Shown here in pieces: positions 38,774 to 61,321 of a stretch of DNA of 64,000 bases. The DNA lies in assembly GCA_016700095.1 (NCBI GenBank), contig CP065002.1, forward strand, positions 867,141 through 931,140, read 5' to 3'. The stretch is from Candidatus Woesebacteria bacterium. GTDB taxonomy: Bacteria; Patescibacteriota; Microgenomatia; UBA8517. Below the pieces are notes generated by a model. It was not told the DNA's origin, searched no databases, and worked only from the letters and a program-made list of their open reading frames with translations. Positions within the stretch are counted from its first letter, which is position 1. The number at the start of each line of letters is the position of its first letter. Made by a program: the position numbers and the translations under genes.

Positions 38774-38775
38774 TT

Positions 38776-43417: not shown

Positions 43418-43466
43418 GTCGTCTGACATAATTATCAACTTGTTTTAACCCAGATTGACAAAAGAC

Positions 43467-44312: not shown

Positions 44313-44386
44313 ATTAATAATTATATAGTAAATTTATTACAGCGCAATACTCCTCCAAATATTTAATTTACCAATGAATGCGTTTT

Positions 44387-45532: not shown

Positions 45533-45533
45533 A

Positions 45534-46400
45534 CTAAGTTATTATCAGTATAACACCACCAAACATTATGACTGCACCGACAAGTTTATTTGCAATGTAC
45601 GTTTCATGAAAGAAATACCAACCAAATAAAGTATTGAATATTATCGCTAGTTTGAAAATTGCCGTTACCAAACCAAGGTTTTGCATACTAAACGCTAAAT
45701 AGGCACATGTTTGACCAACAGCCCCCAGTATCCCAATAAGTAAATATGTTTTTTTGTCCTTCGCTATACTAACCAAAGGACGTACCTTGTTTTTTATCAG
45801 TAACAAAGAAAGAATGAGTGTAGAAATAATTAATCCTACAAAAGAAGCAAAAGGGGGAACAGCAGGATAGGTGTTCTGAATGGCAATTTTTTCAAATATC
45901 GGAGTAACGCTCCATATTAGGTATGCAAGTAGCGCAAGTCGGACACCTTTTTCATTAAAAGTTTCCATAAAAGATGAAATAACATTTTTGTAGTTTTTTT
46001 GCCGCAGAAGATATGTCCCCACGACAATAAATATAATTCCTAAAATGTCTCGTCCGCCTAGCTTTTCTTTTAGCAAAAGATAAGAGACTATGGCAGTAAA
46101 TGCCGGATTATAAGCAGACATTGAACTTACAAGTGACAGATCAGTTGTTTTTAGAGCTTTATAAACCAATATCGCCGCGAGTGTTCCAAGGGTAGAACTA
46201 ATTAGGATACTTACAATAAAGATGTGATTAATAAAGGGGATTTGATATTTAATAATAATTATCAAAAAAAGAAATAGTATTACAAGTAACTGTGATACGA
46301 ACAAATAAACTCTCTCGTCGGTTGCACGTAAAATCTTTTTGGCGAATACGTTAGTAACCGATGAAGTTAGTGCAAAGGATATTGAGTATAAAAACCACAT
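45534..46400 (-). CDS. EamA/DMT-superfamily 10-TM transporter
   Basis: 288 aa with two repeated 5-TM halves. Composition is typical of EamA domains. Confidence 0.6.
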   Translation of the reverse strand: MWFLYSISFALTSSVTNVFAKKILRATDERVYLFVSQLLVILFLFLIIIIKYQIPFINHIFIVSILISSTLGTLAAILVYKALKTTDLSLVSSMSAYNPAFTAIVSYLLLKEKLGGRDILGIIFIVVGTYLLRQKNYKNVISSFMETFNEKGVRLALLAYLIWSVTPIFEKIAIQNTYPAVPPFASFVGLIISTLILSLLLIKNKVRPLVSIAKDKKTYLLIGILGAVGQTCAYLAFSMQNLGLVTAIFKLAIIFNTLFGWYFFHETYIANKLVGAVIMFGGVILIIT

Positions 46401-46430
46401 TTACGTTGTTAACTAGCCTATCGGAGATAT

Positions 46431-47213
46431 TTATTTTTTATCATAATAATGTAGTATTTTTAGTTTGTTATAAACAGCCAAGGTGTCCCACGCCATTTTG
46501 AATGGCGAGTTGGGATTAAATATGGGAAAAAATTGGATTCTACTTTTACCTACATTAAAGTTTAGCTCGATCGGTGCTTCGTAAATTCTTGTATATCCCA
46601 TGTGGTTTGCAAGAGCCAGCATTTCAATGTCCATGGCAAATCTATCAATTGATAGTTTGGGGAGAATTTTTTTAATGACTTCTTTTTTAAATATTTTTAT
46701 CCCGCTTTGGGTGTCTGTCAGAGATAAACCAAAAAGTAATTTAATACCGAAAGAATATCCGACACTTAGTATCCTCCTTAATAACGGGTAATCAAGTTTG
46801 GACGCAGGGTGTCGTTTACTGCCGACAATTACATCTGCATCGTACCATTCCATATGAGCGAGTAACATCATAATTCCCTTTTCTTTGATGTCGCGACCTG
46901 CATCCATGAAAGATATCAAATCTCCATTCGCTTCTTTCATACCGGTACGGACAGCATACCCCTTGCCCCTATTTTCTTTATAACTAATAAACTTGAGGTT
47001 CGAATAATGAAGTTTTTTTACCTCCGCAGAGGTGTTATCAAACTGGCCATCTTCAACGCAGATTATTTCAAAGTCGTATTTCTCCGGTAACCCTTGTTTT
47101 AATGTTTTAATCAATATTTCTAGATCCGTTTTGATAGTTTTCCCCTCCTTGTAGGAAGGAACCACAATTGAAACTAGTGTCTTTGTACTTTTCTTCATAC
47201 TACGTTTTAACAT
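46431..47213 (-). CDS. GT2, DPM1/GtrB-like glycosyltransferase (soluble)
   Basis: VSIVVPSYKEGKTI...ICVEDGQFDNT...ENRGKGYAVRTG...FMDAGRD. Confidence 0.7.
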   Translation of the reverse strand: MLKRSMKKSTKTLVSIVVPSYKEGKTIKTDLEILIKTLKQGLPEKYDFEIICVEDGQFDNTSAEVKKLHYSNLKFISYKENRGKGYAVRTGMKEANGDLISFMDAGRDIKEKGIMMLLAHMEWYDADVIVGSKRHPASKLDYPLLRRILSVGYSFGIKLLFGLSLTDTQSGIKIFKKEVIKKILPKLSIDRFAMDIEMLALANHMGYTRIYEAPIELNFNVGKSRIQFFPIFNPNSPFKMAWDTLAVYNKLKILHYYDKK

Positions 47214-48465
47214 AGTTTAAACGCTTTAATTCATTGTAACCCAGGTATACAAATAATACTAAAAGTGTAAAGCCCATAAGTATTGTATTCACATATAAAA
47301 CTTCTCTTATCGTAGAATGAACATTCCAGAGTACAAATATTTGAACGATTGAAGTGACCAATGGAAACATCACTACTTGCGTCCGGTGGATCGACAGTAA
47401 GAAATTTACAATTAAGCTTGCAAGGGTATAAAAAGTAATAAATAAACCCATCCAAACAAGTTCCGGCGCAACAATAAGATAATCCTTTCCATACAAAAGT
47501 CCAATTGCCAGGTCGGGCAGTAAATAGTAGAACACCAAAACCAAAGACGATAATAAAAAGACCGCAGAGACACTTAGATAAAAGGTTGTTCTATAATTCT
47601 CTCCCTTTGAGCGTTTACCTGCGACAATCGGAAACATAACTGAAGCGACTGGTTGCGTTGCAAAAAATATAATTTTCCCCAACATGGAAAGAGCAGCATA
47701 ATACCCTGCAATCGGATTTTCCGGACCGAAGAAATGTTTTATTATAATTAAATCAACGGTAAATATTGATGTAAATGCCATAGCTTGCAGGAGAACAGGG
47801 AAAGCAAATTTAATAATAGGATAGATATTGTAGTCTAATGAGGATTTTTCCGATATTTCCTTTTTGATGACAATTTCAGAATAATAGTATGCCATCACGG
47901 AAGACATAACTATTGCAAAAGTAGCTCCGGGAACTTTGAGTCCAAAGAAAACCAGGACGATACCTAAAAATAACTTCGCCGTACTTGAAATCGAATCGGA
48001 AACAACCACACCTGTAAATTTTAATATTCCCTGAAGGAGCGCTTTGTTTACAATTGTTAACAACATAAAATAAACAATCGGTGCTATAAAAATAAGACTA
48101 TAAAATTCGCCCAAGTGTAAAAAATTCTTCAACGGATAGGCAGATAGAAGCATAACAACACTGGCAATTATCGAAAATCTTTTAAGTAATTTTTTTAAAG
48201 TAAAATATATGTGATCTCTTTCTGATTTGCTTTTGGCTGATGATATAAATTTAACAATCGCAAAACTAGTGGAGGTTGGAATAATTCCGACAATATAAAG
48301 GATAGAGAAAATTATCGCCAAGTTTCCGTAATCAACCGGTCCAAGCACTCTTCCCATCAGAAGATGATAAATATAATTAATTCCGTTATTACCCAAACTT
48401 CCCCCAACCATCAAAAGACTACCAAGAAGCAAAGGGTTTCTAATTAAGTCTTTTGCCTTTTTCAT
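47200..48465 (-). CDS. Wzx/MurJ-like flippase (MOP superfamily)
   Basis: About 12 TM helices. Likely start MKKAKDLIRN at 48465; the ORF-track start at 48513 abuts the gmd stop. Confidence 0.6.
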   Translation of the reverse strand: MKKAKDLIRNPLLLGSLLMVGGSLGNNGINYIYHLLMGRVLGPVDYGNLAIIFSILYIVGIIPTSTSFAIVKFISSAKSKSERDHIYFTLKKLLKRFSIIASVVMLLSAYPLKNFLHLGEFYSLIFIAPIVYFMLLTIVNKALLQGILKFTGVVVSDSISSTAKLFLGIVLVFFGLKVPGATFAIVMSSVMAYYYSEIVIKKEISEKSSLDYNIYPIIKFAFPVLLQAMAFTSIFTVDLIIIKHFFGPENPIAGYYAALSMLGKIIFFATQPVASVMFPIVAGKRSKGENYRTTFYLSVSAVFLLSSLVLVFYYLLPDLAIGLLYGKDYLIVAPELVWMGLFITFYTLASLIVNFLLSIHRTQVVMFPLVTSIVQIFVLWNVHSTIREVLYVNTILMGFTLLVLFVYLGYNELKRLNYVKT

Positions 48466-48513
48466 ACAATCTTGTACGATTATACTGCAGAAAAATGAAG
48501 CGATACAGCGCAA

Positions 48514-49539
48514 CTATTTCAAGCGGGCAATATTGGCATCGACAAGCATTGCAACAAGATCACTAAATTCAGTTCTCGGTTTCCAACCAAGCACTTTCAC
48601 AGCTTTTTTGGGATCGGCAACAAGTGGCCCCGTTTCTGTCGGCCGTACAAACCTCGGGTCAATAGTCACATATTCATTCCAGTCTTTTCCAACATAACCA
48701 AATGCCTCCTCACAAAGCTCACGAATCGTATGCGTTTCACCCGTACCGATTACATAATCGTCTGGCTTACTTTGTTGTAACATTAACCACATACTTTCGA
48801 CATAATCACCGGCAAAACCCCAATCCCTTTTGGCTTCTAAATTTCCCAATGCGACTTTTTTATTTTTAAAAATCGGCTCTCCTTCTTCGTTTAAATGTTC
48901 ACTGGTTTTGATACCCAACTTTGCACACGCTGCCGCATATGTTACTTTCTGAGTAACAAATCCCAAACCACGCCTTGGTGATTCATGATTAAAAAGAATT
49001 CCACAAGAAATAAACATTCCATAGCTTTTCCGATAAATTTTAGCGATGTTATGCGCATACAATTTTGCGGCTGCATATGGGTTCGCGGGATTAAACGGTG
49101 TGTCCTCATTCTGGGGAATTTCTTTCACCCAACCAAACATTTCAGAACTTGACGCTTGATAAAAACGGGCTTTAGGACAGCGTTCGCGTATACATTCCAT
49201 TACACGTTGTGCCCCAACACCTGTTATTTCCGCTGTATGGACGGGCTGTTTAAAAGATTCGGCAGGCGAAGACTGCGAGGCGAGATTATAAACTTCGTCT
49301 ACATCACCTATAACCGAAAGGGCATTGGTAAGTGATACCGGATCCAACAAATCAGCTTGTACGATATTTAATTGATGTTGAAAATGAGCAATATTTGCAT
49401 ACAAAAAGTGACTGGTTTTTCTTACAATCCCCGATACCTCGTAACCTTTTTTCAATAAAAACTCTGCCAAATACGATCCGTCTTGTCCCGTGACACCCGT
49501 AATTAATGCTTTTTTGTTTTTAAGTTTTTTCATTGACAA
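48514..49539 (-). CDS. gmd: GDP-mannose 4,6-dehydratase
   Basis: KKALITGVTGQDGSYLAEFLLKKGYEVSGIVRKTS is the canonical Gmd N-terminus. Downstream ...NIAKIYRKSYGMFISCGILFNHESPRRG matches the Gmd NHESPRRG motif. 341 aa. Confidence 0.85.
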   Translation of the reverse strand: MSMKKLKNKKALITGVTGQDGSYLAEFLLKKGYEVSGIVRKTSHFLYANIAHFQHQLNIVQADLLDPVSLTNALSVIGDVDEVYNLASQSSPAESFKQPVHTAEITGVGAQRVMECIRERCPKARFYQASSSEMFGWVKEIPQNEDTPFNPANPYAAAKLYAHNIAKIYRKSYGMFISCGILFNHESPRRGLGFVTQKVTYAAACAKLGIKTSEHLNEEGEPIFKNKKVALGNLEAKRDWGFAGDYVESMWLMLQQSKPDDYVIGTGETHTIRELCEEAFGYVGKDWNEYVTIDPRFVRPTETGPLVADPKKAVKVLGWKPRTEFSDLVAMLVDANIARLK

Positions 49540-49697
49540 CTTTATTTATATATTAATAATTAGAAAAGTAACTACACTCAACCTGACTCTTTAATAATAT
49601 TTTCAACCCCGAACTTTAACTTTTGATTAATTCAATCATTCGCGAATTAAAACGCGAAGACTTCTTGAATTAGAATAAATTCTAACATACTCGTCAA

Positions 49698-50813
49698 TTA
49701 ATTGATTCCGTAAGCTTTGATTGTCTCTTTGGCCGTAATTGTCCAGTTATATTTCTTAACGTGTAATAACCCCTTGGAAATACATGTCTTTCGTTTTTTC
49801 TCGTTTTTATACAACAAACTAAAAGATTGCGCAAATCCGTCCACACTATCAGGATCAACAAAAATAGCTGCCTTTTCAGCAATTTCCACCAATGCTTGAG
49901 TTTTGCTTGCGACAACCGGAACACCGCAAGCCATGGCTTCAAGAACAGGAAAACCAAAACCTTCCGAAAACGACGGTTGGCAATATACTGTTGCCAAATT
50001 GTATATTTTTACCAAATCCTCGTCACTGACAAAACCCAATCTTTTTACTCTTGGATTATCCTTTAGTAAATCCAGTATTTGCTTGTAATGCTTAACTTCA
50101 GGATGTGGTTTTCCGAAAAGGAATCTCGCCCAATCTCTTGGTCCGTGTAGTTGGGAAATTTCCGAAGTATAATTCTCAATATAAAGCGCTTGTTTCCCCA
50201 CAATAATTAAATCGGTTTTAATTTTGTTGCATGCTTGTATTAAAGTTCCAATATTTTTGTTGTAATTGACGTCACCGACATATAAGACAAATCTTTTGGG
50301 AAGCAAATATTTCTTAACGATATTTTCTTGCCAAGTATCATTCTTTAATTGATTAAAGTGGCTAGCAGGCGCTAAATGCGTGACAAATATCTTTTCGCTT
50401 GGAATACCCAAAAACCTGACAATATCCTTTTTGGATGCCTCAGTATCGGTCACAACTGCGTAAACACGTCGCAGTTGCCTTTTTTGATCTTGTAGTTTTA
50501 CTTTACCTCGCACACCCGAAGGATACTGATTGGGGTGTAAAAGTGGTATCACGTCGTGAATTGTAACTACTATTTTAGCATCAACTTGAGGTAATTTACT
50601 TTCGTAAAGTTTGAAAAACGGAAAATGAATAATATCAAACTTATGAGCATTTTTTATAAGCGTTTGGGTGTCAAGTCCAGTTATATCTAGCGAAAACTCA
50701 CCGGCAATTTTCTCCAAACTTTCAAGTAAATATTTCGTATAAAAACCTACCCCCCTCACTTTGTCTTGTGATTTTAGGGGTCCTATGTCAATTGCTACTT
50801 TCATATCATTCAA
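49698..50813 (-). CDS. GT4 (GT-B fold) glycosyltransferase
   Basis: MKVAIDIGPLKSQDKVRGVGFYTKYLL resembles the GT4/GT1 mannosyltransferase N-terminus. C-terminal SFSEGFGFPVLEAMACGVPVVAS. Confidence 0.75.
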   Translation of the reverse strand: MNDMKVAIDIGPLKSQDKVRGVGFYTKYLLESLEKIAGEFSLDITGLDTQTLIKNAHKFDIIHFPFFKLYESKLPQVDAKIVVTIHDVIPLLHPNQYPSGVRGKVKLQDQKRQLRRVYAVVTDTEASKKDIVRFLGIPSEKIFVTHLAPASHFNQLKNDTWQENIVKKYLLPKRFVLYVGDVNYNKNIGTLIQACNKIKTDLIIVGKQALYIENYTSEISQLHGPRDWARFLFGKPHPEVKHYKQILDLLKDNPRVKRLGFVSDEDLVKIYNLATVYCQPSFSEGFGFPVLEAMACGVPVVASKTQALVEIAEKAAIFVDPDSVDGFAQSFSLLYKNEKKRKTCISKGLLHVKKYNWTITAKETIKAYGIN

Positions 50814-51177
50814 CTAATACATGTTTCTCGGGTGACATTCCCGGAATAGAAGTTACTTTTATCCAAGTACTGTTTCCTTGAGCAAAATGAATTTGACCTG
50901 GCATAATTGTAAAACTCCGTCCAGGTGTGATTGTATGCTCGCGCCCTTCAACGTTAATTATTAGATTGCCTTTTATAACCTCAATTACTTCTTGTGATTG
51001 CCTATGATAATGGGTTATTTTTTTATCAATAACCGCAATATAAACACTTCTTTGTGGATTTAATTCTCTTGATTCAAGTTCACAAATTACTTCACCGGTA
51101 TGAAGTAGATCGTCAACGTATATTTTTTTCCCGGGATAAAGAATTTTCAACTCACTTATTATCTTTTTTGCCTCCAT
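50806..51177 (-). CDS. Small cupin-domain protein (possible sugar isomerase or epimerase)
   Basis: HYHRQSQEVIEVIKGNLIINVEGREHTITPGRSFTIMPGQIHFAQ fits the cupin_2 two-His motif pattern. 123 aa. Confidence 0.5.
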   Translation of the reverse strand: MEAKKIISELKILYPGKKIYVDDLLHTGEVICELESRELNPQRSVYIAVIDKKITHYHRQSQEVIEVIKGNLIINVEGREHTITPGRSFTIMPGQIHFAQGNSTWIKVTSIPGMSPEKHVLVE

Positions 51178-51210
51178 ATTATTTATTGCGTTATTACTTT
51201 GCTCTTTACG

Positions 51211-51954
51211 TTACTTATAATCAGACGGGTAAAGCGTGATTTCAGCCTCATATTCATCTTTCTCAATTATAGCAATAAATTTGTCAGCTACCCACGAAGG
51301 AGTAAAATATGATTTGCCTCGTAAATTTTCCTCAATTTTATCTTCCAGAGACAGTGGGCCGAAATCAGTTAATGTACTACCTAAGTCTATATGAACAAAA
51401 TGAATATTCGACCCATGATATTCAGCGGCAAGTGACAAAGTCATTCCCCTCAAGGCATATTTCGTGGCACAATATACACTCCTGCAAGGAGTAGGGATTT
51501 TACCCATACCCGAACCCACATTTATAACGACAGAGTCCTCGGATTTTTTAAGGTGAGGCAGAAGTTCTTTTGTTAAGTAAAAGGGTGTCGTTACGTTTAT
51601 CGCAACACTATCTTCCCATTCATTAATACCTGCATCTTCTAAACTTTTGTATACACCAACACCAGCTGCATTTACCAAAATATCAATTTTTTCAGTTAAA
51701 CCCAGTATCTTTTCCGCCGTCTCTTTAACTTTTTGTGTTTTTGTTGCATCCATTTGAATGTACTCATGACCATCTCCATCGAGTCTGTCAATCAAATCCT
51801 TGAGTTTACTTTCAGTCCTAGACAGTAAAATAAGTTTCACTCCCTTTTGGGCTAACTTAACTGAAAGTACTGAGCCAATTCCACCAGTTGCACCTGTAAT
51901 AACCGCCGTTTTATTTTTCAAATTCATACTTGATATTACCATATTCGTATTCAC
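51211..51954 (-). CDS. Classical short-chain dehydrogenase/reductase (SDR)
   Basis: KTAVITGATGGIGSVLSVKLAQKG (TGxxxGxG), NAAGVG, and the catalytic YCATKYAL (YxxxK). The start may be ATG at 51927. Confidence 0.8.
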   Translation of the reverse strand: MNTNMVISSMNLKNKTAVITGATGGIGSVLSVKLAQKGVKLILLSRTESKLKDLIDRLDGDGHEYIQMDATKTQKVKETAEKILGLTEKIDILVNAAGVGVYKSLEDAGINEWEDSVAINVTTPFYLTKELLPHLKKSEDSVVINVGSGMGKIPTPCRSVYCATKYALRGMTLSLAAEYHGSNIHFVHIDLGSTLTDFGPLSLEDKIEENLRGKSYFTPSWVADKFIAIIEKDEYEAEITLYPSDYK

Positions 51955-51991
51955 TCTTGCCCTGTGAGTTTAAAATAATTAAAATACTTGT

Positions 51992-52924
51992 ATGCCTACA
52001 AAAATATTCGGCCACAAAGCACCAGATACCGATACCATATGCTCTGCTGTTTCCTATGCATGGTTTCTAAATCAAAAAGACATTGATGCAAAGGCTTATA
52101 GATTGGGAGACTTAAACAAAGAAACACAGTTCGTGTTGGAAAATTTTAATGTCCCTTCACCTGATTTGCTTGGTCACCTTGAGGAAAAAGATAAAGTAGT
52201 AATTGTCGATACCAACAATCCAGAAGAATTACCTGACGACCTTCAAAAGGCCGAAATAATTCAAGTGATTGATCACCACAAATTAACAGGTGGAATTAAA
52301 ACTAACTATCCCATACCGGTAATAATTAAGCCACTTGCTTCAACGGCTACGATTATTTGGAAGCACATAAAACATTCCGGAATTGAAATCGACCTGGCAA
52401 ATGCAGGACTTCTACTCGCAGGGATAATATCCGATACCTTGAATTTAACCAGCCCTACGACAACCGAGAAAGACAGAAGCGCTGTTAAAGAGCTAAACGA
52501 AATTGTCAAACTAGATATCAATGAATTTGCCGGTAAAATGTTTGAAGCGAAGGGTGATTTAACGGGCATGTCGCCTAGGCAAATTGTTTTAGTGGATAGT
52601 AAGATTTTTGAGTTTGGAACGAAGAAAGTTCGGATATCCGTGTTAGAAACAACCAAACCCGATAATGCGCTAAATATGCAATCTGATTTAGAAAAGGATT
52701 TACAAGAATTGAAACTTAAGGAAAATCTCGATTTCGCATTTTTCTTTGCAGTCGATATTCTTAACTCAAGAGCAGTACTCATATCTGGTACTAACGAAGA
52801 AAATAATCTTGCCGAAGAAGCTTTTAACGCTAAGTTTGAGAACGGTAGAATTATGCTCCCCGGTGTAGTGTCACGCAAAAAACAAATAGTACCCGTACTC
52901 CAGACTGTAATCGAAAAACTCTAG
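51992..52924 (+). CDS. ppaC: Family II (Mn-dependent, DHH-family) inorganic pyrophosphatase
   Basis: IFGHKAPDTDTICSAVSYAWFL (H-x-x-PD-x-D motif) and VIDHHKL (DHH motif). The 310-aa length is typical of PpaC. Confidence 0.85.
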   Translation: MPTKIFGHKAPDTDTICSAVSYAWFLNQKDIDAKAYRLGDLNKETQFVLENFNVPSPDLLGHLEEKDKVVIVDTNNPEELPDDLQKAEIIQVIDHHKLTGGIKTNYPIPVIIKPLASTATIIWKHIKHSGIEIDLANAGLLLAGIISDTLNLTSPTTTEKDRSAVKELNEIVKLDINEFAGKMFEAKGDLTGMSPRQIVLVDSKIFEFGTKKVRISVLETTKPDNALNMQSDLEKDLQELKLKENLDFAFFFAVDILNSRAVLISGTNEENNLAEEAFNAKFENGRIMLPGVVSRKKQIVPVLQTVIEKL

Positions 52925-52979
52925 ATAAAGCATAGTATAAAAAGACAACATAATTTAAATTTTTGCGAAAGTAGTATAA

Positions 52980-54182
52980 TTGTTGCAAATGAAAAAATAC
53001 TACGGCGAAGAAACGCGAAAGGCGCTTGATAATTTCCACATGACCAACACCCCGGTTGATCTTCGTTTGATTAAAGCGGTCGCAATTGTAAAACTTGCAG
53101 CCATTAAAGCAAACGTAAAAACCGGCAAAATAAAAAGAGAGCTCGGTCGACCGATAATCAAGGCGGCTAAAGAAGTAATTGACGGAAAACTTGACACTCA
53201 ATTCCCGACCGACCAAATCCAAGGTGGTGCCGGTACGTCAATAAATATGAATGTAAATGAAGTGATTACATCTCGAGCAAATGAAATACTAGGCAGTAGT
53301 TCTATTCATTATTTAGATCATGTCAATTCATCGCAATCAACAAACGATGTAATTCCAACCGCTATAAGAATCGTAATTCTTGAAGAGCTCGGCAAATATT
53401 TGATTTCGTTAAATAAATTGTCAATTACATTTGCCAAAAAAGAAAAAGAGTTTTGCAATATTGTTAAAGTAGGAAGAACCCATTTGCAAGACGCTGTACC
53501 GATTACCTTGGGTCGAGAATTCGGCGCATACAAGAATTTAATCAAAAGAGATATTAAAAGACTTGAGGAAATAAAAAAATATCTTCTTATCACCAATCTG
53601 GGTGGTACAGCAATCGGAACAAGTGAAAATGCTTCCAAAGACTATATCACAGCTATTCATGAATACTTAGAAATGGAAACGGGCTATAAATTCACACCAT
53701 CACATGACTTAGTCGATGCTACTCAAAACATCGACCCCTTGATCCACGCTTCGTATCTCATACAGCTTTCCAGTGTGGGAATATCCAAAATTTGTAGTGA
53801 CTTAAGACTACTTGCCTCAGGACCGCGTGCAGGGTTAGCTGAAATACTTTTACCATCATACCAAAAAGGTTCAAGCATAATGCCGGGAAAAACTAACCCC
53901 GTTATACTGGAAGCTTTTAACCAAGTCACATATCAGGTAATTGGCAATACCCAAGTAGCTACACAAGTAATTCTTGCCGGTGAACTAGAGTTGAACACCA
54001 TGCTTCCCGTTTTTTCAAAGACGATAATAGAGTCATTAACTTTTTTAACCAACGGCATCAATTCGGTAAATGATACCGTTTCAACAATAAAGGCAAATTC
54101 CGAAAAAATTCAATCTAACCTTGATACTAGTCTTGTACTGTCGACTCAATTGTCAAAATTCATTGGATACGACAGAGCATAG
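52980..54182 (+). CDS. Class II fumarase/aspartase-family lyase, terminated by an in-frame TAG about 40 codons before the expected end
   Basis: Signature GSSIMPGKTNP (the GSSxMPxKxN motif), and YGEETRKALDNF at the N-terminus. The protein ends ...IGYDRA* while homologs continue. Confidence 0.75.
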   Translation: MLQMKKYYGEETRKALDNFHMTNTPVDLRLIKAVAIVKLAAIKANVKTGKIKRELGRPIIKAAKEVIDGKLDTQFPTDQIQGGAGTSINMNVNEVITSRANEILGSSSIHYLDHVNSSQSTNDVIPTAIRIVILEELGKYLISLNKLSITFAKKEKEFCNIVKVGRTHLQDAVPITLGREFGAYKNLIKRDIKRLEEIKKYLLITNLGGTAIGTSENASKDYITAIHEYLEMETGYKFTPSHDLVDATQNIDPLIHASYLIQLSSVGISKICSDLRLLASGPRAGLAEILLPSYQKGSSIMPGKTNPVILEAFNQVTYQVIGNTQVATQVILAGELELNTMLPVFSKTIIESLTFLTNGINSVNDTVSTIKANSEKIQSNLDTSLVLSTQLSKFIGYDRA

Positions 54183-54308
54183 TTTCTGGTGACTAAAGCT
54201 ATTGAACACACATCTCAACTAAAAGACGAAGCTATAAACGACAACATCGATGCTCATATAATTGACGCGGTGTTTGGTAAAACAAAGACCGTGAAGAAGT
54301 TTTATTAA
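54183..54308 (+). other. In-frame continuation of the fumarase-family ORF after the TAG (41 codons), retaining homology to the fumarase C-terminus
   Basis: FLVTKAIEHTSQLKDEAINDNIDAHIIDAVFGKTKT is read in the same frame immediately after TAG. This parallels FumC ...[25 protein letters not shown].... Confidence 0.45.
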
Positions 54309-55177
54309 GACTTAATACTCCCTACCCAATACTTCCAATAAGCAAGGGGGAAGTGCATCGCCGAGTAAGCTGACCACAGAAAACCGCGAATTCCATCTTT
54401 GTAACCTTTGTGGCGGATAAATAACATAACAAAAAGATAAGTGGGTTTAATAAATGAAAAATACATAAATTTCCTTTTATTTTTTTTGATTCCAACTTTT
54501 TCCATTTGTCCAGCCGTTATACTTGTATATCTATCGGCGCGATAAAGATAACGATCCAAAGTAGGAGATTCATGGTGTTCAAGATCATTAAACAACCAAG
54601 CAATTTCCCCATCAACTTCCATCAGTTCATGAACGCTTTTGGCAGGTAAACGAGCTTTCCCCTGTTTAATTAAACGAATTACGGCATCCGGATAAACTCC
54701 TGCATGCTTAAGCGGTTTACCGACAAAGTAATTTATACGAGGAATAAAAAATGCACATATTTCACCGGTTTCTTTTCCCAAAGAACCATCTCTTTGCCTA
54801 ATAATTTTTTCGTGTCTTTGGAATAGCTTCCATTTTTTAAGATCTATAATCTTCCTTGACCTTATTTTGTCGTCGTTATTATTTAATATGTTTTGTATTT
54901 CAATTGCTAATTCCTTGGAAACTCTTTCGTCAGCATCAAGTTGTAATATCCAATCTCCTTTTGCTTTTTCGATGGCAAATTGCTTTGTCTGATGGAAGTT
55001 TGTTGTGTGTTTGAATTCATATACTTTAGCACCACATTCTCTGGCAATTGCTATAGTTTTATCAATTGAACCATCGTCAACCACGATTATCTCATCAGCA
55101 ATTGATTTTACGGACAGTAAACAACTTTTTATATTATTTTGTTCGTTTTGAACCGCAAGAACAACTGATAATTTCAT
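54305..55177 (-). CDS. GT2 glycosyltransferase
   Basis: LSVVLAVQNEQNNI...IIVVDDGSIDKT...LQLDADERV (DXD). Confidence 0.75.
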   Translation of the reverse strand: MKLSVVLAVQNEQNNIKSCLLSVKSIADEIIVVDDGSIDKTIAIARECGAKVYEFKHTTNFHQTKQFAIEKAKGDWILQLDADERVSKELAIEIQNILNNNDDKIRSRKIIDLKKWKLFQRHEKIIRQRDGSLGKETGEICAFFIPRINYFVGKPLKHAGVYPDAVIRLIKQGKARLPAKSVHELMEVDGEIAWLFNDLEHHESPTLDRYLYRADRYTSITAGQMEKVGIKKNKRKFMYFSFIKPTYLFVMLFIRHKGYKDGIRGFLWSAYSAMHFPLAYWKYWVGSIKS

Positions 55178-55183
55178 AGTGAA

Positions 55184-56608
55184 TTAATACCAAAACTGAT
55201 CTTGAAAATTAATAATAGTTTTGATATTTAGGTGGAGAGCAATTATTGTAAATATAACTAAAATTACTTGCACGATTCTCTTAATAATATTATTATTCGT
55301 TAATTCATACAACATTGGTGGTGTAAGTAATCCTACAAAAGTGTATTGAAATTTTCTAATTTCACTGAGACCAAATTTCTTTTCACCAGTACCATAAATA
55401 TAACTTGAAGCAAACGGAACTGTTAAGACAAAAAAGGTAGAAAGTAATTTTGGTTTTTTTATAACATTTATTATGACATCCGCCATTGCCCATGCTAAGA
55501 ACGGGTAAAAGGGAATTCTATACCAACCTTTGCTGTGCCCTGACATAATGAAAAAAAACACCAAATACGACCCGAGAAAAACTGGAATTATAATATCTTT
55601 TAAGTTTATCTTCCTCCTTTCTCTACTTTGAATACCAATAGCAAATGCTGATATCCAACCAAAAATAATCCAACCATCAACATCCATAACTTTCTCGCCT
55701 ATCCTATATGTAACAAACAAACTAAATATATTCCCTGGTAGATATAACTCCCTACCGCTTGACACATTAATAATTTTGAGAAATATATCTATGTTATAAA
55801 AATATCCATAAACAAACCACGCGAAGACAAAAAGAAATATTGTCCCGGCTAAAACAAGTGATTGTTTGTAGTATTTTAACGCAAATAGGCATCCAAACAC
55901 TGCAATGGGAACGAATATACCAGGAGTTTTATACATTAAACTCGAAGCGCTAACAAAAGAAAGAAGCAAGAGTACAATTATGTTTTTTCTTTTTGTATAT
56001 ATCAACAAAAGCAAAATTGACAACATTGAAGAAAAAGCTATCATGTTCTCGGATAACACCAAACGACTACTTAAAACGAAAGTGGGCACAGTAGCATAGA
56101 TCATAGATGCCAAAAGTGCCTCTATATATCCATGCGTTAACCAAACAACAATAAAAAGTATAAATATACTAAGGGTTGCCAGTTTTATCATCGGATATCT
56201 AACAAGCCCGACATCAACATTTTCGAGATCATATATTCCTTTTGTATACAAATAGCCACCGGTTAACAAACCAAATCCGGGTGGTTCATCAAACCACGGC
56301 TTCACCATTCTAAATTTAGTTCCTCTTATTGTTACCATTGGGAAATCTCCATAATCATCCCAAAAAGACCATGAACTAGGTACTTTATCCTTAATCAGGC
56401 TTAGTCCATTAAAAGGAGCTTTGTATTCATCAGCGGTGTCATTGATTGGGGGGAAAAACGTAAATTTTTCCATACGCAAGTTAAAGCCAAGTCTCGCAAC
56501 TATATATGCAGTAATTAGAACGACAATTAGTTTAGCTGTTTTGTGCGTATTAAAATAGTTTATAACTTTATGTATTCTTTCTCTCAATATTTTATATGTT
56601 ATCGACAT
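55184..56608 (-). CDS. GT-C glycosyltransferase, PMT_2/GT39-like (474 aa)
   Basis: VKPWFDEPPGFGLLTGGYLYTKG is a DE-containing first-loop motif. About 11 TM helices. Confidence 0.6.
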   Translation of the reverse strand: MSITYKILRERIHKVINYFNTHKTAKLIVVLITAYIVARLGFNLRMEKFTFFPPINDTADEYKAPFNGLSLIKDKVPSSWSFWDDYGDFPMVTIRGTKFRMVKPWFDEPPGFGLLTGGYLYTKGIYDLENVDVGLVRYPMIKLATLSIFILFIVVWLTHGYIEALLASMIYATVPTFVLSSRLVLSENMIAFSSMLSILLLLIYTKRKNIIVLLLLSFVSASSLMYKTPGIFVPIAVFGCLFALKYYKQSLVLAGTIFLFVFAWFVYGYFYNIDIFLKIINVSSGRELYLPGNIFSLFVTYRIGEKVMDVDGWIIFGWISAFAIGIQSRERRKINLKDIIIPVFLGSYLVFFFIMSGHSKGWYRIPFYPFLAWAMADVIINVIKKPKLLSTFFVLTVPFASSYIYGTGEKKFGLSEIRKFQYTFVGLLTPPMLYELTNNNIIKRIVQVILVIFTIIALHLNIKTIINFQDQFWY

Positions 56609-56626
56609 CTATAGCTGGTTTTCATT

Positions 56627-57904
56627 TTATAATTTATTTATTATATTTGCCACCTTTTCACCCAATTCAACTGCGTAATTTGTTCCTCTATCCCAAGGAT
56701 AAACTTGTTGAATGTTAGCTAAGTACAGACCTTCAATTGGAGTTTCAAAAGGTGGTATTTGCTTAGAATAATTAAGGGGAATTATTGGTTGTGCAAACGA
56801 AGCCTTGAATACATAGCTATCATTTATCCAAGACTTATTAAAAGATCGATTAATTCTTTTTAACGACGTGGTAAATTCATTAACGAGTGCTTCTTGTGTA
56901 TATGAGAAATACTTATGATTAACGGGTAAATAATTTCCAATATAAACTAAGTTTTCATCGTTGTAGTGTTTTTTATCTATAAGATGTGTATGTTCGACAA
57001 CAGCGAGAAATGGAAACGATGTATCGTTCACATTTAACCAATAAGTATTGTCTTTTAGAAATTCGTGTTTTAATGACAACAGAAGTGTTATGGCGCCCAA
57101 TCCCTTAAGCGGTTTTAAACTATTTATATAACCTTGGGGTAACCCGCTTGTTAATTTTATAAACATACTCGTTGGAAGAGTGCAAATCACAAAATCATAT
57201 TCGTTAGGTGTTCGCCCCTTGTTTGTGATTAATATTCCCTTTTTAGTTTTTTCAATTCCAATTGTTTCTTCATTGTAAATAATTTTTCCTCCTTCTTTCT
57301 GAAATTCATCTGCGATGCTTTGCGCAAACGCTTGAAAACCCTCCTCGGGATATCCCAAAGCCGAACTTCTTTTTTTTATTCTTGCCCAAAACCATGATGC
57401 CGGAATCTCTTTGGAGAAGTCACCAAACTTACCTTCCATCAAAGGTTGCCAAATTAATTGCCAAGATTTTCTACCCATATATCTTTCCAGATAATTATGA
57501 GCAGTCTGCGATTCCATTTTTTTCCAAAAAGGCGTAGTTTTTAAATAAGCAAGTACCATGCCGGTTCGAATCCTGTCAGTTACGGATAATTGGGAAAATT
57601 GCAGTAAACTTAAGGGGCTGTCAAGTTGAAATAATTCATCTTTAATAATAACTGATGTTTTTGGTCTAGAAAAAATTATCGGGTGATGTATTTCTTTGGC
57701 AAGTTTTTTGATATACGTATCTGAAGTAAACCAATGATGATAGTGTTCTTCAATAGCCCACTCCCATTTGCCGGCTCGAAAGCCACTCGCCAAACCGCCG
57801 GGTTTTGATGAGGATTCATAAATAGTTACACCGTGTCCCTTTTTTGCCAAAGTTAAACCAGCCGTTAGGCCCACATAACCAGCACCGATTATTCCAATTT
57901 TCAT
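56627..57904 (-). CDS. Rossmann-fold FAD/NAD(P)-dependent oxidoreductase (amine-oxidase / protoporphyrinogen-oxidase / UDP-galactopyranose-mutase-like superfamily)
   Basis: MKIGIIGAGYVGLTAGLTLAKKGHGVTIYESSSKPGGLASGF is a GxGxxG dinucleotide-binding motif followed by an acidic residue and GG. 425 aa. Confidence 0.6.
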   Translation of the reverse strand: MKIGIIGAGYVGLTAGLTLAKKGHGVTIYESSSKPGGLASGFRAGKWEWAIEEHYHHWFTSDTYIKKLAKEIHHPIIFSRPKTSVIIKDELFQLDSPLSLLQFSQLSVTDRIRTGMVLAYLKTTPFWKKMESQTAHNYLERYMGRKSWQLIWQPLMEGKFGDFSKEIPASWFWARIKKRSSALGYPEEGFQAFAQSIADEFQKEGGKIIYNEETIGIEKTKKGILITNKGRTPNEYDFVICTLPTSMFIKLTSGLPQGYINSLKPLKGLGAITLLLSLKHEFLKDNTYWLNVNDTSFPFLAVVEHTHLIDKKHYNDENLVYIGNYLPVNHKYFSYTQEALVNEFTTSLKRINRSFNKSWINDSYVFKASFAQPIIPLNYSKQIPPFETPIEGLYLANIQQVYPWDRGTNYAVELGEKVANIINKL

Positions 57905-57906
57905 AA

Positions 57907-59553
57907 TTAATTTGCTACAATTTTATAAGCGGTACTACCATTTGGAAACTTAATAGTCTTAACAATATTAGCCGCATCAGGAATTTCCTCATCAGTCCCA
58001 ACTATGAGTGAATTAGGATAAGTGTTGGGGGTGTTGGGCCATTCAATTGAATTAAATCTAAACTTTTCAAATTCTCTGACAGTTGAAAAACCATACCCAT
58101 CACGAGGGGACAAAACATGTGCTCCCTGAAATTCGGCGGTGGGAACTTTGAGATAAAACAAAGTTAAAATGTATGGTTGATCATACCGATCAGTAATAAT
58201 TATATAATCAAACTCATCTTTCACACTTTCAACATAAGAGATCATTTCTTGAAATCCGTATTGCGAAGAATAAGGATATGCACGAGGCATGTGAAAATTA
58301 TATAAATATTCATATCTCGCAAACGACCAGACTAACATGATGAACATAATTGGAAATAATGTGTATTTTAATAAAGTATTTTGTTTAAATATATTAAGCA
58401 TGTTTGTCAAACCATATGCCGATATAAGGCAAAGGGGTATTATCATGTTATGAGAACGAAGTGCATGTGGCGATTGAAAAGTTAATGCGGCAGCAAAAGG
58501 AGCAATCAAAAGCCACCAAAGCATAAAACTCCATTTACTATTTACTCCTCTTGAAATGAAATAAAGGCCAGCGATCAAAAGCAGTGAATCAATCAAATAC
58601 ATCTGGCCGTGGTCGGGGACTTTATTGCGTTGAATATCATCGCCTGATATAAACAAAAAGTCTCCCGAGAAGTGCTCTCCCCAATTTTCTGCAATCGCAA
58701 TAGCATAATTTACGAGTTTGTTGTGGATTAATTCAGCCACTAGACCATCAACGTTTTCATGTTCGCCGCGCTGTTCATTAATTTTATTTAATGGTCCAAT
58801 ATCAGCAAATATTCCTACTCCGGCGGCACGCGACATACCTGCCTCTCCGGTTAAATCTTTTGCAAGCGGCAGCAGAAGGACCAATCCGAAGATCCCAGCA
58901 ATTAGTATGGGTTTAAAATTTTTCAGTAAATATTTAAAATTACTAAGTACATATCCAAGTAATAAAAGTGGGATCACAATTCTTGCGGCATGATAAGTAT
59001 ATAGGCCAAGGACAAAAAACAAAGATGAGTATTTGAAATACCTAGTATTCTTAGCGGATTTCACCAGGAACAAGACACCTATTGTTATAAAAAACGTAGC
59101 AATATTTACTTCCCATCCACCTCTTGAAAAATGTATATGCCACGGAGAAATAGCCAAAAATAATGCTGCAATAGTAGGAAAATCGAGTGTCAAATTTAAT
59201 ATTTTTATTTTTACGTCTTTTCCGCGTAGTTCTTTGGCTAATAGGTAGATAAGAATAATAGTTGCAGTTCCCATTAGCGCGCCGGGGGCTCTTACCACCC
59301 ATATGTTAAGACCCAATAGTTTAACAAACGGCAATACAATATAGAAATATAAACCTGGTTTATAATCATTAAACGATTGGAAGTGAAGCGGCCATGCGTT
59401 GCCGTGTTCATCCATTCCTGTATTTACCAAACTCCAAGCATTGTAACCAATTGCAGCCTCGTCGGCGTTTAATGCAGGCAATGTGTTTAATCTATTAAAT
59501 CGCAAATACAACCCTAAAATTAGTATTAATATTATCAATATGTTTTTTCTCAT
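57907..59553 (-). CDS. GT-C glycosyltransferase, ArnT/PMT (GT39/PMT_2)-like. Tandem paralog 1 of 4.
   Basis: LRFNRLNTLPALNADEAAIGYNAWSL (DE motif), WHIHFSRGGWE motif, about 12 TM helices. Confidence 0.7.
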   Translation of the reverse strand: MRKNILIILILILGLYLRFNRLNTLPALNADEAAIGYNAWSLVNTGMDEHGNAWPLHFQSFNDYKPGLYFYIVLPFVKLLGLNIWVVRAPGALMGTATIILIYLLAKELRGKDVKIKILNLTLDFPTIAALFLAISPWHIHFSRGGWEVNIATFFITIGVLFLVKSAKNTRYFKYSSLFFVLGLYTYHAARIVIPLLLLGYVLSNFKYLLKNFKPILIAGIFGLVLLLPLAKDLTGEAGMSRAAGVGIFADIGPLNKINEQRGEHENVDGLVAELIHNKLVNYAIAIAENWGEHFSGDFLFISGDDIQRNKVPDHGQMYLIDSLLLIAGLYFISRGVNSKWSFMLWWLLIAPFAAALTFQSPHALRSHNMIIPLCLISAYGLTNMLNIFKQNTLLKYTLFPIMFIMLVWSFARYEYLYNFHMPRAYPYSSQYGFQEMISYVESVKDEFDYIIITDRYDQPYILTLFYLKVPTAEFQGAHVLSPRDGYGFSTVREFEKFRFNSIEWPNTPNTYPNSLIVGTDEEIPDAANIVKTIKFPNGSTAYKIVAN

Positions 59554-59555
59554 AA

Positions 59556-61268
59556 CTAGAATACCTTATATCGATTTACATTTGACTCATCAAGAACCTC
59601 AACAAGTCTAAAAATCATCTCACCGGTTGGTAAGGTAATTTCTCCGATTTGTTTAAATTCTCCCGGATCAACTGAATCCTGGATTGGAATTGTCTCGGAA
59701 TCCGCAGCAAACAATGTACCAAAGTCTCCACGCGCTGTCGTCCAATTTAAGTATTCAAAACTTATATTATCAAGATTTGTCACCCTACCAACATCACCAT
59801 ACCTGCTTTCTTCTAGGTATGCATTTTTTTGATAAGTCGCAGGATCGTATTTCTGATAAAAAAGAAAATAAATATACGGTTGAGCATACGTAAAATGTAT
59901 TTTTACTTTTTTATAATCATGTTGGATTGGTGTAATTATTTCGACTAGTTGTTTATATCCATAATCCCAATATCTCGCGTTATGAATTGGTTGGTGAACG
60001 AAATATGCATCGAGAAAATAAAATACACTCGCCAAATACAATAAAAATACTCCTAAAATGCCAACATATTTCACCTTACCCCATTCCGACACTTTCTGTG
60101 AAAAGAAAGACAGACCAAAAGCAGTCACTACTACCAAAGGAATAACCATGTTATAAGACCTCACTGCATGAATTTGGTCGCGCGATAAGGCGGATGGCAA
60201 AGGAGCAAGCAAAAGCCAAAGTAAAATGAAACGAGCACCTGTGTTGTTAGCATTTATCAAAATATATAGACCGCAAAGTAAAAAAAGTGAATCAACAAAT
60301 AGCATTTCTCCCGAGCTGGGAGCTGAATGTCTGGGATTTTGCCAATCACCCTCAAAAAATAGAAATCTCGGAGAAAAGTGATTGAACCACCTTCCCATAA
60401 TTCCCTTGGTTATATTTAGATTTTCAGAATAATAAAGATAGTATTCCGGCGATCCAAATTTAACATCCGCAGTCGCCAAAAGATCCGTTAGATATTCTTG
60501 CGGCCTTGTATATGAAAACACGCTAAACACCTTCAGCCGTCCAGTTTCCCCTTTTGAAAATGATGCAATTATTGGAAATGCCACAATCAGTCCAACAAAA
60601 AAAGACAACACTAAAACTTTTAAGTTAATCTTACTAATTTTCTTTCTGTAAATAATTGCAAGAAGAAATAGAACTATTAGACTGGAAAGTTTCGCGCCTT
60701 GATAGGCAGTCAATGTCGCTCCGAAAGATAGTGCAGCAGGTATCAGATATTTATTATTTGTAAACGATTTTAGAACACAATATATCCCCAAAAGTGTCAA
60801 TGTTAACGCTATGTTAATTTCCCAAGCACCTCGTGAAAAATGAATGTGCCAGGGTGAAATAGCAAGGATAAGTGATGATAATAACGCCGGAGAAAATACT
60901 CCTTTATTTTTTTTATTTTCTACTTCTAATAATAAATTGACAATATGATAAATTATAAAAACTGCAAATATTCCTGAAAGTGAACTGGCCAAACGAACAG
61001 ACACTTCATTAAGGTCAAAAAGAAATACAAACGGAACTGTGGCGTATACATACAAACCGGGTTTGTAATCTCCAAAGGATTTAAATACAATCGGGAGCAG
61101 TTTTCCATATTCATCACGTCCTGTTTTTAGAATCGAGTATGCGTTATAACCAAGCGCCGCCTCATCGGGAGTTAAATGTGGTGGATTTACTCCCAGATTC
61201 CATATTCGCAAAAAGGCAGCAATTACCAATATAGCTAGAAGTGAATAACGTTTCATGTATTGTCTCAT
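59556..61268 (-). CDS. GT-C glycosyltransferase, ArnT/PMT (GT39/PMT_2)-like. Tandem paralog 2 of 4.
   Basis: LRIWNLGVNPPHLTPDEAALGYNAYSI, WHIHFSRGAWE. About 50% amino-acid identity to paralog 1 in the N-terminal region. Confidence 0.7.
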   Translation of the reverse strand: MRQYMKRYSLLAILVIAAFLRIWNLGVNPPHLTPDEAALGYNAYSILKTGRDEYGKLLPIVFKSFGDYKPGLYVYATVPFVFLFDLNEVSVRLASSLSGIFAVFIIYHIVNLLLEVENKKNKGVFSPALLSSLILAISPWHIHFSRGAWEINIALTLTLLGIYCVLKSFTNNKYLIPAALSFGATLTAYQGAKLSSLIVLFLLAIIYRKKISKINLKVLVLSFFVGLIVAFPIIASFSKGETGRLKVFSVFSYTRPQEYLTDLLATADVKFGSPEYYLYYSENLNITKGIMGRWFNHFSPRFLFFEGDWQNPRHSAPSSGEMLFVDSLFLLCGLYILINANNTGARFILLWLLLAPLPSALSRDQIHAVRSYNMVIPLVVVTAFGLSFFSQKVSEWGKVKYVGILGVFLLYLASVFYFLDAYFVHQPIHNARYWDYGYKQLVEIITPIQHDYKKVKIHFTYAQPYIYFLFYQKYDPATYQKNAYLEESRYGDVGRVTNLDNISFEYLNWTTARGDFGTLFAADSETIPIQDSVDPGEFKQIGEITLPTGEMIFRLVEVLDESNVNRYKVF

Positions 61269-61321
61269 GTTACTGACAAAATCTAATTTGCTCTTTGCGA
61301 TATATAATTCTAATTGACAAG

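What the first reader, a model, noticed from the sequence alone, without database searches (positions are those of the whole stretch)
54150..54308. Fumarase/aspartase-family gene interrupted by an in-frame TAG, with 41 downstream codons still homologous to the enzyme C-terminus
The ORF ends ...LSKFIGYDRA-TAG. The same frame immediately continues FLVTKAIEHTSQLKDEAINDNIDAHIIDAVFGKTKTVKKFY-TAA. This parallels the FumC tail [30 protein letters not shown].... So the stop replaces a residue inside a conserved helix. TAG is used as a genuine stop by other genes here, for example the ppaC end at 52922..52924, the acetyltransferase end at 22048..22050, and 36686..36688. Stop-codon reassignment is therefore unlikely. 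A recent nonsense mutation, a C-terminally truncated but possibly functional enzyme, a sequencing error, or low-level readthrough are the remaining options. The gene is one of only two housekeeping genes in the window.
Basis: seen in the sequence. Interest (0 to 1): 0.55.

Follow-up and report, generated by a model that had tools for sequence, protein, structure and literature searches.

The report
Aspartase gene cut short by TAG

Summary
The ORF 52989..54182 (397 aa, Lyase_1) ends in TAG. The same frame continues for 41 codons to TAA at 54306..54308. The tail is homologous to the C-terminal domain of aspartases: it scores 9.0 bits against a profile of homolog tails, and the best of 500 shuffles scores 4.9. 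Its codon usage is typical of coding sequence, and an AlphaFold2 model of the read-through product folds it as the canonical helices. All 75 aligned homologs have a sense codon at that column (Ala, Ser, Thr or Glu). TAG is a normal terminator here: it ends 15 of the 51 long ORFs, including domain-complete genes. An independently assembled Logan contig from run SRR11674018 is 100% identical over 6,930 nt, including the TAG, so a consensus error is unlikely. The stop corresponds to Ala422 of Bacillus AspB, in helix α16, which contacts the catalytic SS loop. All catalytic motifs lie upstream and are intact. The best reading is a recent single-base nonsense mutation, for example TCG or GAG to TAG. 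Whether the 397-aa product still works is open. Several Patescibacteria homologs are naturally short (408–424 aa), and a C-terminally clipped AspB fragment is stable enough to crystallise. Nothing supports recoding or programmed readthrough. Interest is low.

The parts
52989..54182 (+). Truncated aspartate ammonia-lyase ORF (397 aa plus the TAG stop). It is identical to NCBI protein QQS38638.1.
   Evidence: Pfam Lyase_1 E 2e-79. NCBIfam aspartate ammonia-lyase NF008909 scores 466 bits and aspA TIGR00839 scores 414, against 356 for fumC. P0001 is a 100% identical 397-aa protein on a 1.27-Mb Ca. Woesebacteria contig.
53868..53897 (+). SS-loop signature GSSIMPGKTN (aa 294-303), the catalytic loop. 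It is intact.
   Evidence: Read directly from the sequence. S295, K301 and N303 fall in columns that are invariant across 76 sequences.
54180..54182 (+). Premature in-frame TAG, at the column of AspB Ala422 (start of helix α16 of the C-terminal domain).
   Evidence: Homologs at this column have A 39, S 17, T 9, E 4 and 6 others, and none has a stop. The alignment to AspB 1J3U places the stop at A422. The TAG is identical in the Logan contig.
54183..54305 (+). The 41 codons orphaned by the stop, formerly the last four helices of domain 3.
   Evidence: The tail scores 9.0 bits against the homolog-tail profile, above all 500 shuffles. Its codon-usage score is 8.7, against 9.0±3.2 for coding windows. 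AF2 gives pLDDT 88-95 for residues 399-430, with helices at 400-407, 411-417, 422-429 and 433-438. The read-through model aligns with full-length AspB over 438-440 columns at TM 0.94-0.95.
54306..54308 (+). The ancestral stop codon TAA. It overlaps the stop of the convergent GT2 gene within the sequence TTAA.
54189..54308 (+). A mechanical 39-aa ORF starting at a GTG 6 nt after the TAG. It is the only conceivable reinitiation product, and nothing supports it.
   Evidence: It appears in the ORF list. The exact peptide is absent from the 15-billion-protein collection. This genome shows no SD motifs, so a ribosome-binding-site test is uninformative.
54305..55177 (-). Convergent neighbour, a family-2 glycosyltransferase. 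Its stop abuts the ancestral end of the aspartase gene.
   Evidence: Pfam Glycos_transf_2.

Best explanation
This is a genuine, evolutionarily recent single-base nonsense mutation in an aspartate ammonia-lyase gene that was ancestrally 439 codons long. The genome is a Candidatus Woesebacteria (Patescibacteria) genome. The one-step precursors compatible with the homolog column are TCG (Ser) and GAG (Glu). TAG is read as a stop, so the product is a 397-aa protein. That protein keeps domains 1 and 2, all three conserved active-site regions including the SS loop, and the first two helices of domain 3. It lacks helix α16 and the three helices after it. In AspB, those helices pack against the SS loop of a neighbouring subunit. 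Shown here: the stop is real, the tail is homologous and still looks like coding sequence, and the code is standard. Inferred: the mutation is recent, and the enzyme is impaired or deregulated rather than fully normal. On that reading the gene is either an early-stage pseudogene or a tolerated short form.
For: The stop and the open tail are seen directly. A Logan contig from SRR11674018 is 100% identical over 6,930 nt, including the TAG. All 75 homologs have a sense codon at the column, and none ends there. The tail is homologous: 9.0 bits against a best shuffle of 4.9. It keeps the consensus residues L, V, A, L and E of the proximal helix. The tail's codon-usage score of 8.7 is typical of genes here (9.0±3.2); it exceeds 99.2% of random open frames and 93% of open windows in non-coding frames. 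The body scores 591 bits against a profile of relatives no more than 54% identical, which is at the top of the range, and it has no other lesion. AF2 folds the read-through product with mean pLDDT 93.6, including the tail, and the model matches full-length AspB at TM about 0.95. TAG terminates 15 of 51 ORFs, including the domain-complete ppaC-like gene and GDP-mannose dehydratase. No other interrupted gene was seen in the window.
Against: The tail is the most divergent of the 71 tails tested: 8.8 bits, against a next-lowest of 17.9 and a median of 40.8, and 17% identity where about 27% is expected. This could mean the tail has been free of selection for longer than 'recent' implies, or that this lineage's tail was already weakly constrained. 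No close relative exists (the next-best protein is 55% identical), so the age of the mutation and dN/dS cannot be measured. Read-level allele frequencies were not available. The Logan contig may come from the same reads that were used to build or polish the genome.
Confidence: 0.8

Rival explanations
1. The 397-aa form is a working enzyme, and shortening of domain 3 is tolerated or even favoured in Patescibacteria. On this reading the locus is a snapshot of C-terminal domain loss in progress rather than gene death. This overlaps the best explanation, since the same mutation is involved; the two differ only in the functional outcome.
For: The body is highly conserved, with every invariant residue intact. 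Among Patescibacteria-type homologs there are at least three other independent short forms with intact cores: P0082 has 12 residues after the column, the P0029/P0037/P0038 clade has 19-24, and P0043 has 25. The downstream DNA of P0082 and of the P0029/P0037/P0038 clade is plainly non-coding. Chymotrypsin-clipped AspB (PDB 3R6Y, 401 aa, ending about 20 residues earlier than this product) is stable enough to crystallise. In AspB, the α16 residues including A422 stabilise the open, inactive SS loop, and disrupting them (A422S, Y429D) raises activity (PMC11744663). The tail is the most diverged in the family.
Against: No homolog is as short as this one. The tail is still open and still has coding-like codon usage, which does not fit long-standing disuse. 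From my own memory of Fibriansah et al. 2011 (the paper is not held in the library), the clipped AspB fragment showed that the C-terminal domain matters for control of the SS loop and for activity. No activity data exist for any short form.
Confidence: 0.3
2. The TAG is a sequencing or consensus error, and the real genome has a sense codon.
For: The tail looks fully coding and the gene is otherwise perfect. The genome is a single metagenome-derived contig.
Against: An assembly of run SRR11674018 made by a different pipeline (Logan) gives the identical base and 6,930 of 6,930 identical positions around it. The difference would be a substitution rather than a homopolymer indel. No other broken gene was found among 51 ORFs.
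Confidence: 0.05
3. Full-length or two-piece protein is still made, either by low-level TAG readthrough or by termination and reinitiation at GTG 54189.
For: The tail remains open for all 41 codons, with coding-like codon usage. A GTG lies 6 nt after the stop.
Against: The stop is not conserved in any homolog. There is no significant downstream RNA structure (z = -1.3) and no hairpin or terminator. No tRNA genes lie in the window. The 39-aa peptide is not recorded anywhere. The preserved tail is explained equally well by a recent mutation.
Confidence: 0.05
4. TAG is reassigned to an amino acid in this organism, through an alternative code or pyrrolysine.
For: None beyond the single in-frame TAG.
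Against: TAG ends 29% of ORFs (15 of 51), often with a second stop within a few codons. The Pfam domains of the ppaC-like gene and GDP-mannose dehydratase are complete at their TAG stops. The same-frame TAG junctions at 48514 and 4734 separate unrelated proteins.
Confidence: 0.01

Closest known systems
AspB, aspartate ammonia-lyase of Bacillus sp. YM55-1 (PDB 1J3U, 3R6V; clipped form 3R6Y)
   Same: AspB is the best solved relative (E 7e-106, about 42% identity). It shares the three-domain fold, the SS loop GSSIMPGKxN and the active-site motifs. The read-through model superposes on it over its whole length (TM 0.94-0.95).
   Different: The ORF here stops at the equivalent of AspB Ala422, so it lacks α16 and the following helices. 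It is 20-25 residues shorter at the N-terminus, like other Patescibacteria forms. It scores below the NCBIfam aspartase cut-offs. No activity has been tested.
Patescibacteria-type short aspartase homologs (P0082 at 408 aa; P0029, P0037 and P0038 at 419-424 aa; P0043)
   Same: They belong to the same family and are 48-51% identical to this protein. Their catalytic cores are intact and their C-terminal domains are shortened.
   Different: For the four whose loci were read (P0082, P0029, P0037, P0038), the genes end cleanly, with non-coding, stop-rich DNA downstream. Here a 41-codon homologous remnant is still present, and the cut is 12-25 residues earlier.
Ordinary nonsense-mutation pseudogenes or truncated alleles in bacterial genomes
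   Same: There is a single in-frame stop at a position where homologs carry a sense codon. Homology is preserved in the same frame beyond it. The genetic code is standard.
   Different: Nothing distinguishes this case in kind. The only special point is that the lesion removes a regulatory subdomain and not the catalytic core.

Membership tests
Aspartase/fumarase superfamily (Pfam Lyase_1) | A Lyase_1 domain scoring above the gathering score | tested here: met
   267.5 bits against a cut-off of 27, covering aa 3-319.
Aspartase/fumarase superfamily (Pfam Lyase_1) | The SS-loop signature GSSxMPxKxN and the conserved TSxNMN and HLQDA regions | tested here: met
   GSSIMPGKTN at aa 294-303, GTSINMN at aa 82-88 and THLQDA at aa 164-169. 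These fall in columns that are invariant or nearly invariant across 76 sequences.
Aspartase/fumarase superfamily (Pfam Lyase_1) | A complete C-terminal domain (Pfam FumaraseC_C) | tested here: not met
   The 397-aa ORF gives no hit. The read-through product gives only 18.4 bits against a cut-off of 32.5. Nearly all homologs carry PF10415.
Aspartate ammonia-lyase (NCBIfam NF008909 and TIGR00839 aspA) | A score above the curated cut-off of the family model | tested here: not met
   NF008909 gives 466 bits against 510, and TIGR00839 gives 414 against 681. The aspartase models still score best, ahead of fumC at 356. The intact relative P0002 also falls just short (506.9 against 510), so the whole clade is divergent.
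Aspartate ammonia-lyase (NCBIfam NF008909 and TIGR00839 aspA) | Deamination of L-aspartate to fumarate and ammonia | not testable with these tools
   This needs an enzyme assay of the 397-aa protein and the revertant.
Nonsense-truncated gene or incipient pseudogene | An in-frame stop where homologs have a sense codon, with same-frame homology continuing downstream | tested here: met
Nonsense-truncated gene or incipient pseudogene | The stop is present in the reads and is not an assembly artefact | tested here: inconclusive
   An independent Logan assembly of SRR11674018 is identical. Allele frequencies in the reads could not be inspected.
Stop-codon reassignment (TAG read as sense) | TAG avoided as a terminator, and in-frame TAGs recurring at conserved positions in many genes | tested here: not met
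   TAG ends 15 of 51 ORFs, and only this one gene is interrupted.
Stop-codon reassignment (TAG read as sense) | A suppressor tRNA (anticodon CUA) or pyl genes | not testable with these tools
Programmed stop-codon readthrough | The stop is conserved among orthologs, with a stimulatory context or downstream structure | tested here: not met
   No homolog has a stop there. The downstream fold gives z = -1.3.

The most novel reading that the evidence does not exclude
The locus catches, mid-process, a recurrent and tolerated (possibly adaptive) loss of the distal C-terminal domain in Patescibacteria aspartases. Cutting at the AspB-Ala422 position removes the helix that holds the SS loop open. The result would be a leaner, deregulated but active enzyme. 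Short homologs that have already lost the remnant (P0082, the P0029/P0037/P0038 clade, P0043) would be later stages of the same path.
Probability: 0.2. Interest if true: 0.35.

Novelty: new member of a known kind. Interest (0 to 1): 0.15.

Why it matters
It matters mainly for annotation. The 397-aa protein deposited as 'aspartate ammonia-lyase' (QQS38638.1) is a truncated allele of a 439-codon gene, and metabolic reconstructions of this Woesebacteria genome should not assume full activity. There is also minor interest for enzymology. The cut falls exactly at the α16 position (AspB Ala422), which engineering work has linked to control of the SS loop, and several Patescibacteria homologs are naturally short. 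Assays of these natural truncations could therefore show how dispensable domain 3 is. There are no implications for the genetic code.

Tried and rejected
(1) TAG recoding. I checked stop usage and the two other places where ORFs are joined in frame by TAG alone or by TAG plus three codons: 48514..49539 with 47200..48513, and 4734..5564 with 3333..4724. Both pairs are unrelated adjacent genes: a GDP-mannose dehydratase next to a flippase, and what looks from its sequence like a methyltransferase next to a large membrane protein (the second pair was not scanned against Pfam).

(2) Close relatives for a dN/dS or allele comparison. The protein search, exact-pattern DNA scans of genome contigs and metagenome contigs, a genome contigs locus search, and exact look-ups of both neighbouring genes found only the same Logan contig. 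Otherwise they found relatives at most 55% identical.

(3) Synteny with the nearest homologs. There is none.

(4) A terminator, hairpin or RNA structure in or after the tail. None was found, and Rfam gave no hit in the window.

(5) A ribosome-binding-site test for reinitiation at GTG 54189. It is uninformative, because only 1 of 38 genes has an SD-like motif.

(6) Literature on the activity of C-terminally truncated aspartase. Fibriansah et al. 2011 is not held in the library, and keyword searches returned mostly irrelevant papers. Only PMC11744663 was useful.

(7) The source paper of the genome. It was not identified. PMC8518188 was checked and does not mention the run.

(8) Other broken genes in the window, as a sign of an error-prone assembly. 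None was found.

Full report
**What is in the sequence.** On the + strand an ORF runs from ATG 52989 to a TAG at 54180..54182. A TTG at 52980 is only the longest possible start. The ORF encodes 397 aa ending ...LSKFIGYDRA. The same frame continues for 41 codons, FLVTKAIEHTSQLKDEAINDNIDAHIIDAVFGKTKTVKKFY, to a TAA at 54306..54308. That TAA overlaps, within the sequence TTAA, the stop of a convergent family-2 glycosyltransferase gene at 54305..55177.

**Identity of the gene.** The 397-aa product has a full Pfam Lyase_1 domain (E 2e-79). Among NCBIfam models it scores best against aspartate ammonia-lyase: NF008909 gives 466 bits and aspA TIGR00839 gives 414, ahead of class II fumarase at 356. All of these are below the curated cut-offs. 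The intact relative P0002 also falls just below, so the whole clade is divergent. The catalytic SS loop GSSIMPGKTN (aa 294-303; nt 53868..53897) is present, as are the other invariant residues of the family. An identical 397-aa protein is deposited as QQS38638.1, 'aspartate ammonia-lyase [Candidatus Woesebacteria bacterium]', on a contig of 1,274,238 bp. The next-best protein among 5.8 billion cluster representatives is only 55% identical. The nearest genome hits are Gracilibacteria and Peribacteria at 51%.

**Is the downstream homology real?** Yes.
- Homologs are typically 434-450 aa (Patescibacteria type) or about 470 aa (Bacillota) and carry the FumaraseC_C domain.
- In alignments of 28 and 76 sequences the tail aligns in frame with their C-termini. 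It keeps the consensus L-V-x-x-A...L-x-x-E of the first helix.
- Pfam FumaraseC_C is detected only when the stop is read through, and only weakly (E 0.003).
- Against a profile built from homolog tails, the tail scores 9.0 bits; none of 500 shuffles exceeds 4.9.
- At the TAG column the 75 homologs have A (39), S (17), T (9), E (4) and six other residues. None has a stop and none ends there. Ser (TCG) and Glu (GAG) are each one substitution away from TAG.

**Is it an artefact?** Probably not. A Logan contig assembled independently from run SRR11674018 (16.9 kb) is identical to the window at all 6,930 compared positions (window 49989..56918), including the TAG. The difference from a sense codon would be a substitution, not a homopolymer indel. 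No other gene among the 51 long ORFs of the window looks split or truncated. I could not inspect read pile-ups, and the Logan run may be the same data that were used to build or polish the genome. A small residual doubt therefore remains.

**Is TAG a stop here?** Yes.
- TAG ends 15 of the 51 ORFs, against 27 for TAA and 9 for TGA.
- The DHH/DHHA2 pyrophosphatase-like gene and a GDP-mannose 4,6-dehydratase are domain-complete at their TAGs.
- In two places ORFs are joined in frame by TAG alone or by TAG plus three codons (near 48514 and near 4734). Both turned out to be unrelated neighbouring genes.
- The window contains no tRNA genes, so a suppressor tRNA elsewhere in the genome cannot be excluded directly. 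The stop usage argues strongly against one.

**How old is the mutation?** Two signals point in somewhat different directions.
- The tail still looks like coding sequence. It is open for 41 codons, which happens by chance in 5.4% of windows at this composition. Its codon-usage log-odds of 8.7 sits at the 47th percentile of true coding windows (9.0±3.2). That value exceeds 99.2% of random open frames and 93% of open windows in non-coding frames.
- An AlphaFold2 model of the read-through product (76-sequence alignment) has mean pLDDT 93.6. Tail residues 399-430 score 88-95 and form helices at 400-407, 411-417 and 422-429, with a low-confidence helix at 433-438. The model superposes on full-length AspB over 438-440 columns at TM 0.94-0.95. 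This model is driven by the alignment, so it shows compatibility with the fold, not proof of it.
- On the other hand, the tail is the most divergent of the 71 tails tested. With relatives more than 54% identical left out of the profile, the body scores 591 bits, at the top of the range. The tail scores 8.8 bits, against a next-lowest of 17.9 and a median of 40.8. Tail identity to homologs is 17%, where about 27% is expected.
- The most economical reconciliation is that the distal C-terminus was already weakly constrained in this lineage. The closest relatives P0002, P0004 and P0007 also lack the terminal LTxP motif, and P0035 and P0031 also have poor tails. On that view the stop arose recently. 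Without a close relative, this remains an inference.

**What the truncation removes.** The sequence alignment to Bacillus sp. YM55-1 AspB (1J3U; E 7e-106) puts the TAG at Ala422. [quoted passage not shown] That domain sits next to the SS loop of an adjacent subunit. Ile406, Tyr418, Ala421, Ala422, Ala425 and Tyr429 form a hydrophobic cluster that stabilises the open, unliganded loop. The mutations A422S and Y429D increase activity by destabilising that state. The 397-aa product keeps the equivalents of Tyr418 and Ala421 and loses the rest of α16 and the following three helices. The active site itself is built from regions in domains 1 and 2 of three subunits, and it is untouched.

PDB 3R6Y is a 401-residue chymotrypsin-treated AspB. 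Its aligned part ends about 20 residues earlier than the product here, so a core without domain 3 can be stable. From my own memory of the abstract of Fibriansah et al. 2011 (the paper is not held in the library), kinetics of that fragment indicated that the C-terminal domain is important for control of the SS loop and for activity.

**Natural short forms.** Among Patescibacteria-type homologs, P0082 has only 12 residues after the TAG column, the P0029/P0037/P0038 clade has 19-24, and P0043 has 25. These lineages are 42-49% identical to one another, and their nearest full-length relatives are 51-63% identical, so the shortenings are independent. I read the loci of P0082, P0029, P0037 and P0038. 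Their downstream DNA is stop-rich and non-coding, so they are settled short forms rather than fresh nonsense alleles. This makes a tolerated or partly functional 397-aa enzyme plausible. However, none of these forms is as short as the one here.

**Readthrough or reinitiation.** Nothing supports either. The stop is not conserved. The RNA downstream folds no better than shuffles (z = -1.3). There is no hairpin or terminator in the tail. The 39-aa GTG-initiated peptide is not recorded anywhere. SD motifs are essentially absent in this genome (1 of 38 genes), so a ribosome-binding-site argument cannot be made either way.

**Verdict.** This is a real and ordinary feature: a nonsense allele of an accessory metabolic gene in a reduced CPR genome, caught while the orphaned 3' end is still recognisable. 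My probabilities are as follows.
- About 0.8 for a genuine, recent nonsense mutation. Within that, the split between an impaired incipient pseudogene and a tolerated working short form is roughly even.
- About 0.05 each for a sequencing or consensus error and for readthrough or reinitiation.
- About 0.01 for recoding.

Novelty is limited to a new instance of a known kind, and interest is about 0.15.

Noticed in passing
window, upstream of 38 ATG-start ORFs across 1430..63912: Shine-Dalgarno-like motifs (GGAG, GAGG, AGGA, AAGG, GGTG) are essentially absent in the 25 nt upstream of gene starts: only 1 of 38 genes has one. This suggests SD-independent initiation in this Woesebacteria genome.
   Followed up: partly
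L003 2001-3260 (P0037) and L006 2001-3275 (P0038): These two short Patescibacteria aspartase homologs are 100% identical up to the column of the TAG, but their C-terminal 19-24 residues are clearly different. Both contigs end shortly afterwards. This may be a strain-variable junction or an assembly breakpoint at the gene's 3' end.
   Followed up: partly
L002 2001-3227 (P0082); L004/L005 2001-3269 (P0029); P0043: The aspartase C-terminal domain has been shortened repeatedly and independently in Patescibacteria-type homologs (12, 19-24 and 25 residues after the TAG column). The catalytic residues are intact in all of them. The downstream DNA of P0082 and of the P0029/P0037/P0038 clade is non-coding; the P0043 locus was not read.
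   Followed up: partly
window 1..64000: Almost every gene lies on the minus strand, and GC skew is negative in all but one of the 2-kb windows. The scanned ORFs, about 20 of the 51, are dominated by cell-envelope glycosylation genes: GT2, GT4, PMT/GT-C-like membrane proteins, two Wzx-like flippases (6393..7697 and 47200..48513), two GDP-mannose-dehydratase-like genes (42256..43293 and 48514..49539), and a UDP-GlcNAc 2-epimerase. There is no tRNA and no Rfam hit in 64 kb.
   Followed up: partly
window 48511..48516 and 4725..4736: Two pairs of minus-strand genes lie in the same frame and are separated only by a TAG, or by a TAG plus three codons. They look superficially like read-through fusions, but they are unrelated proteins.
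   Followed up: yes
window 54305..54308: The ancestral aspartase stop (TAA) and the stop of the convergent GT2 gene share the tetranucleotide TTAA. The intact genes would therefore have had no intergenic spacer and no terminator between them. The 123-nt gap seen now is created solely by the premature TAG.
   Followed up: yes
window 7642..10350, 18022..19680, 14708..15139: Large minus-strand ORFs of 902 and 552 aa, and a 143-aa ORF, have no Pfam match at E ≤ 1e-4 within the glycosylation cluster.
   Followed up: no
whole window versus genome contigs: Neither the exact DNA pattern around the TAG nor the exact peptide words of this protein occur in the GTDB species-representative collection. This genome is apparently not a representative there. 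The aspartase's nearest genomic relatives are Gracilibacteria and Peribacteria at 51% identity, with no shared synteny. The gene therefore seems patchily distributed, possibly horizontally acquired, and accessory.
   Followed up: partly
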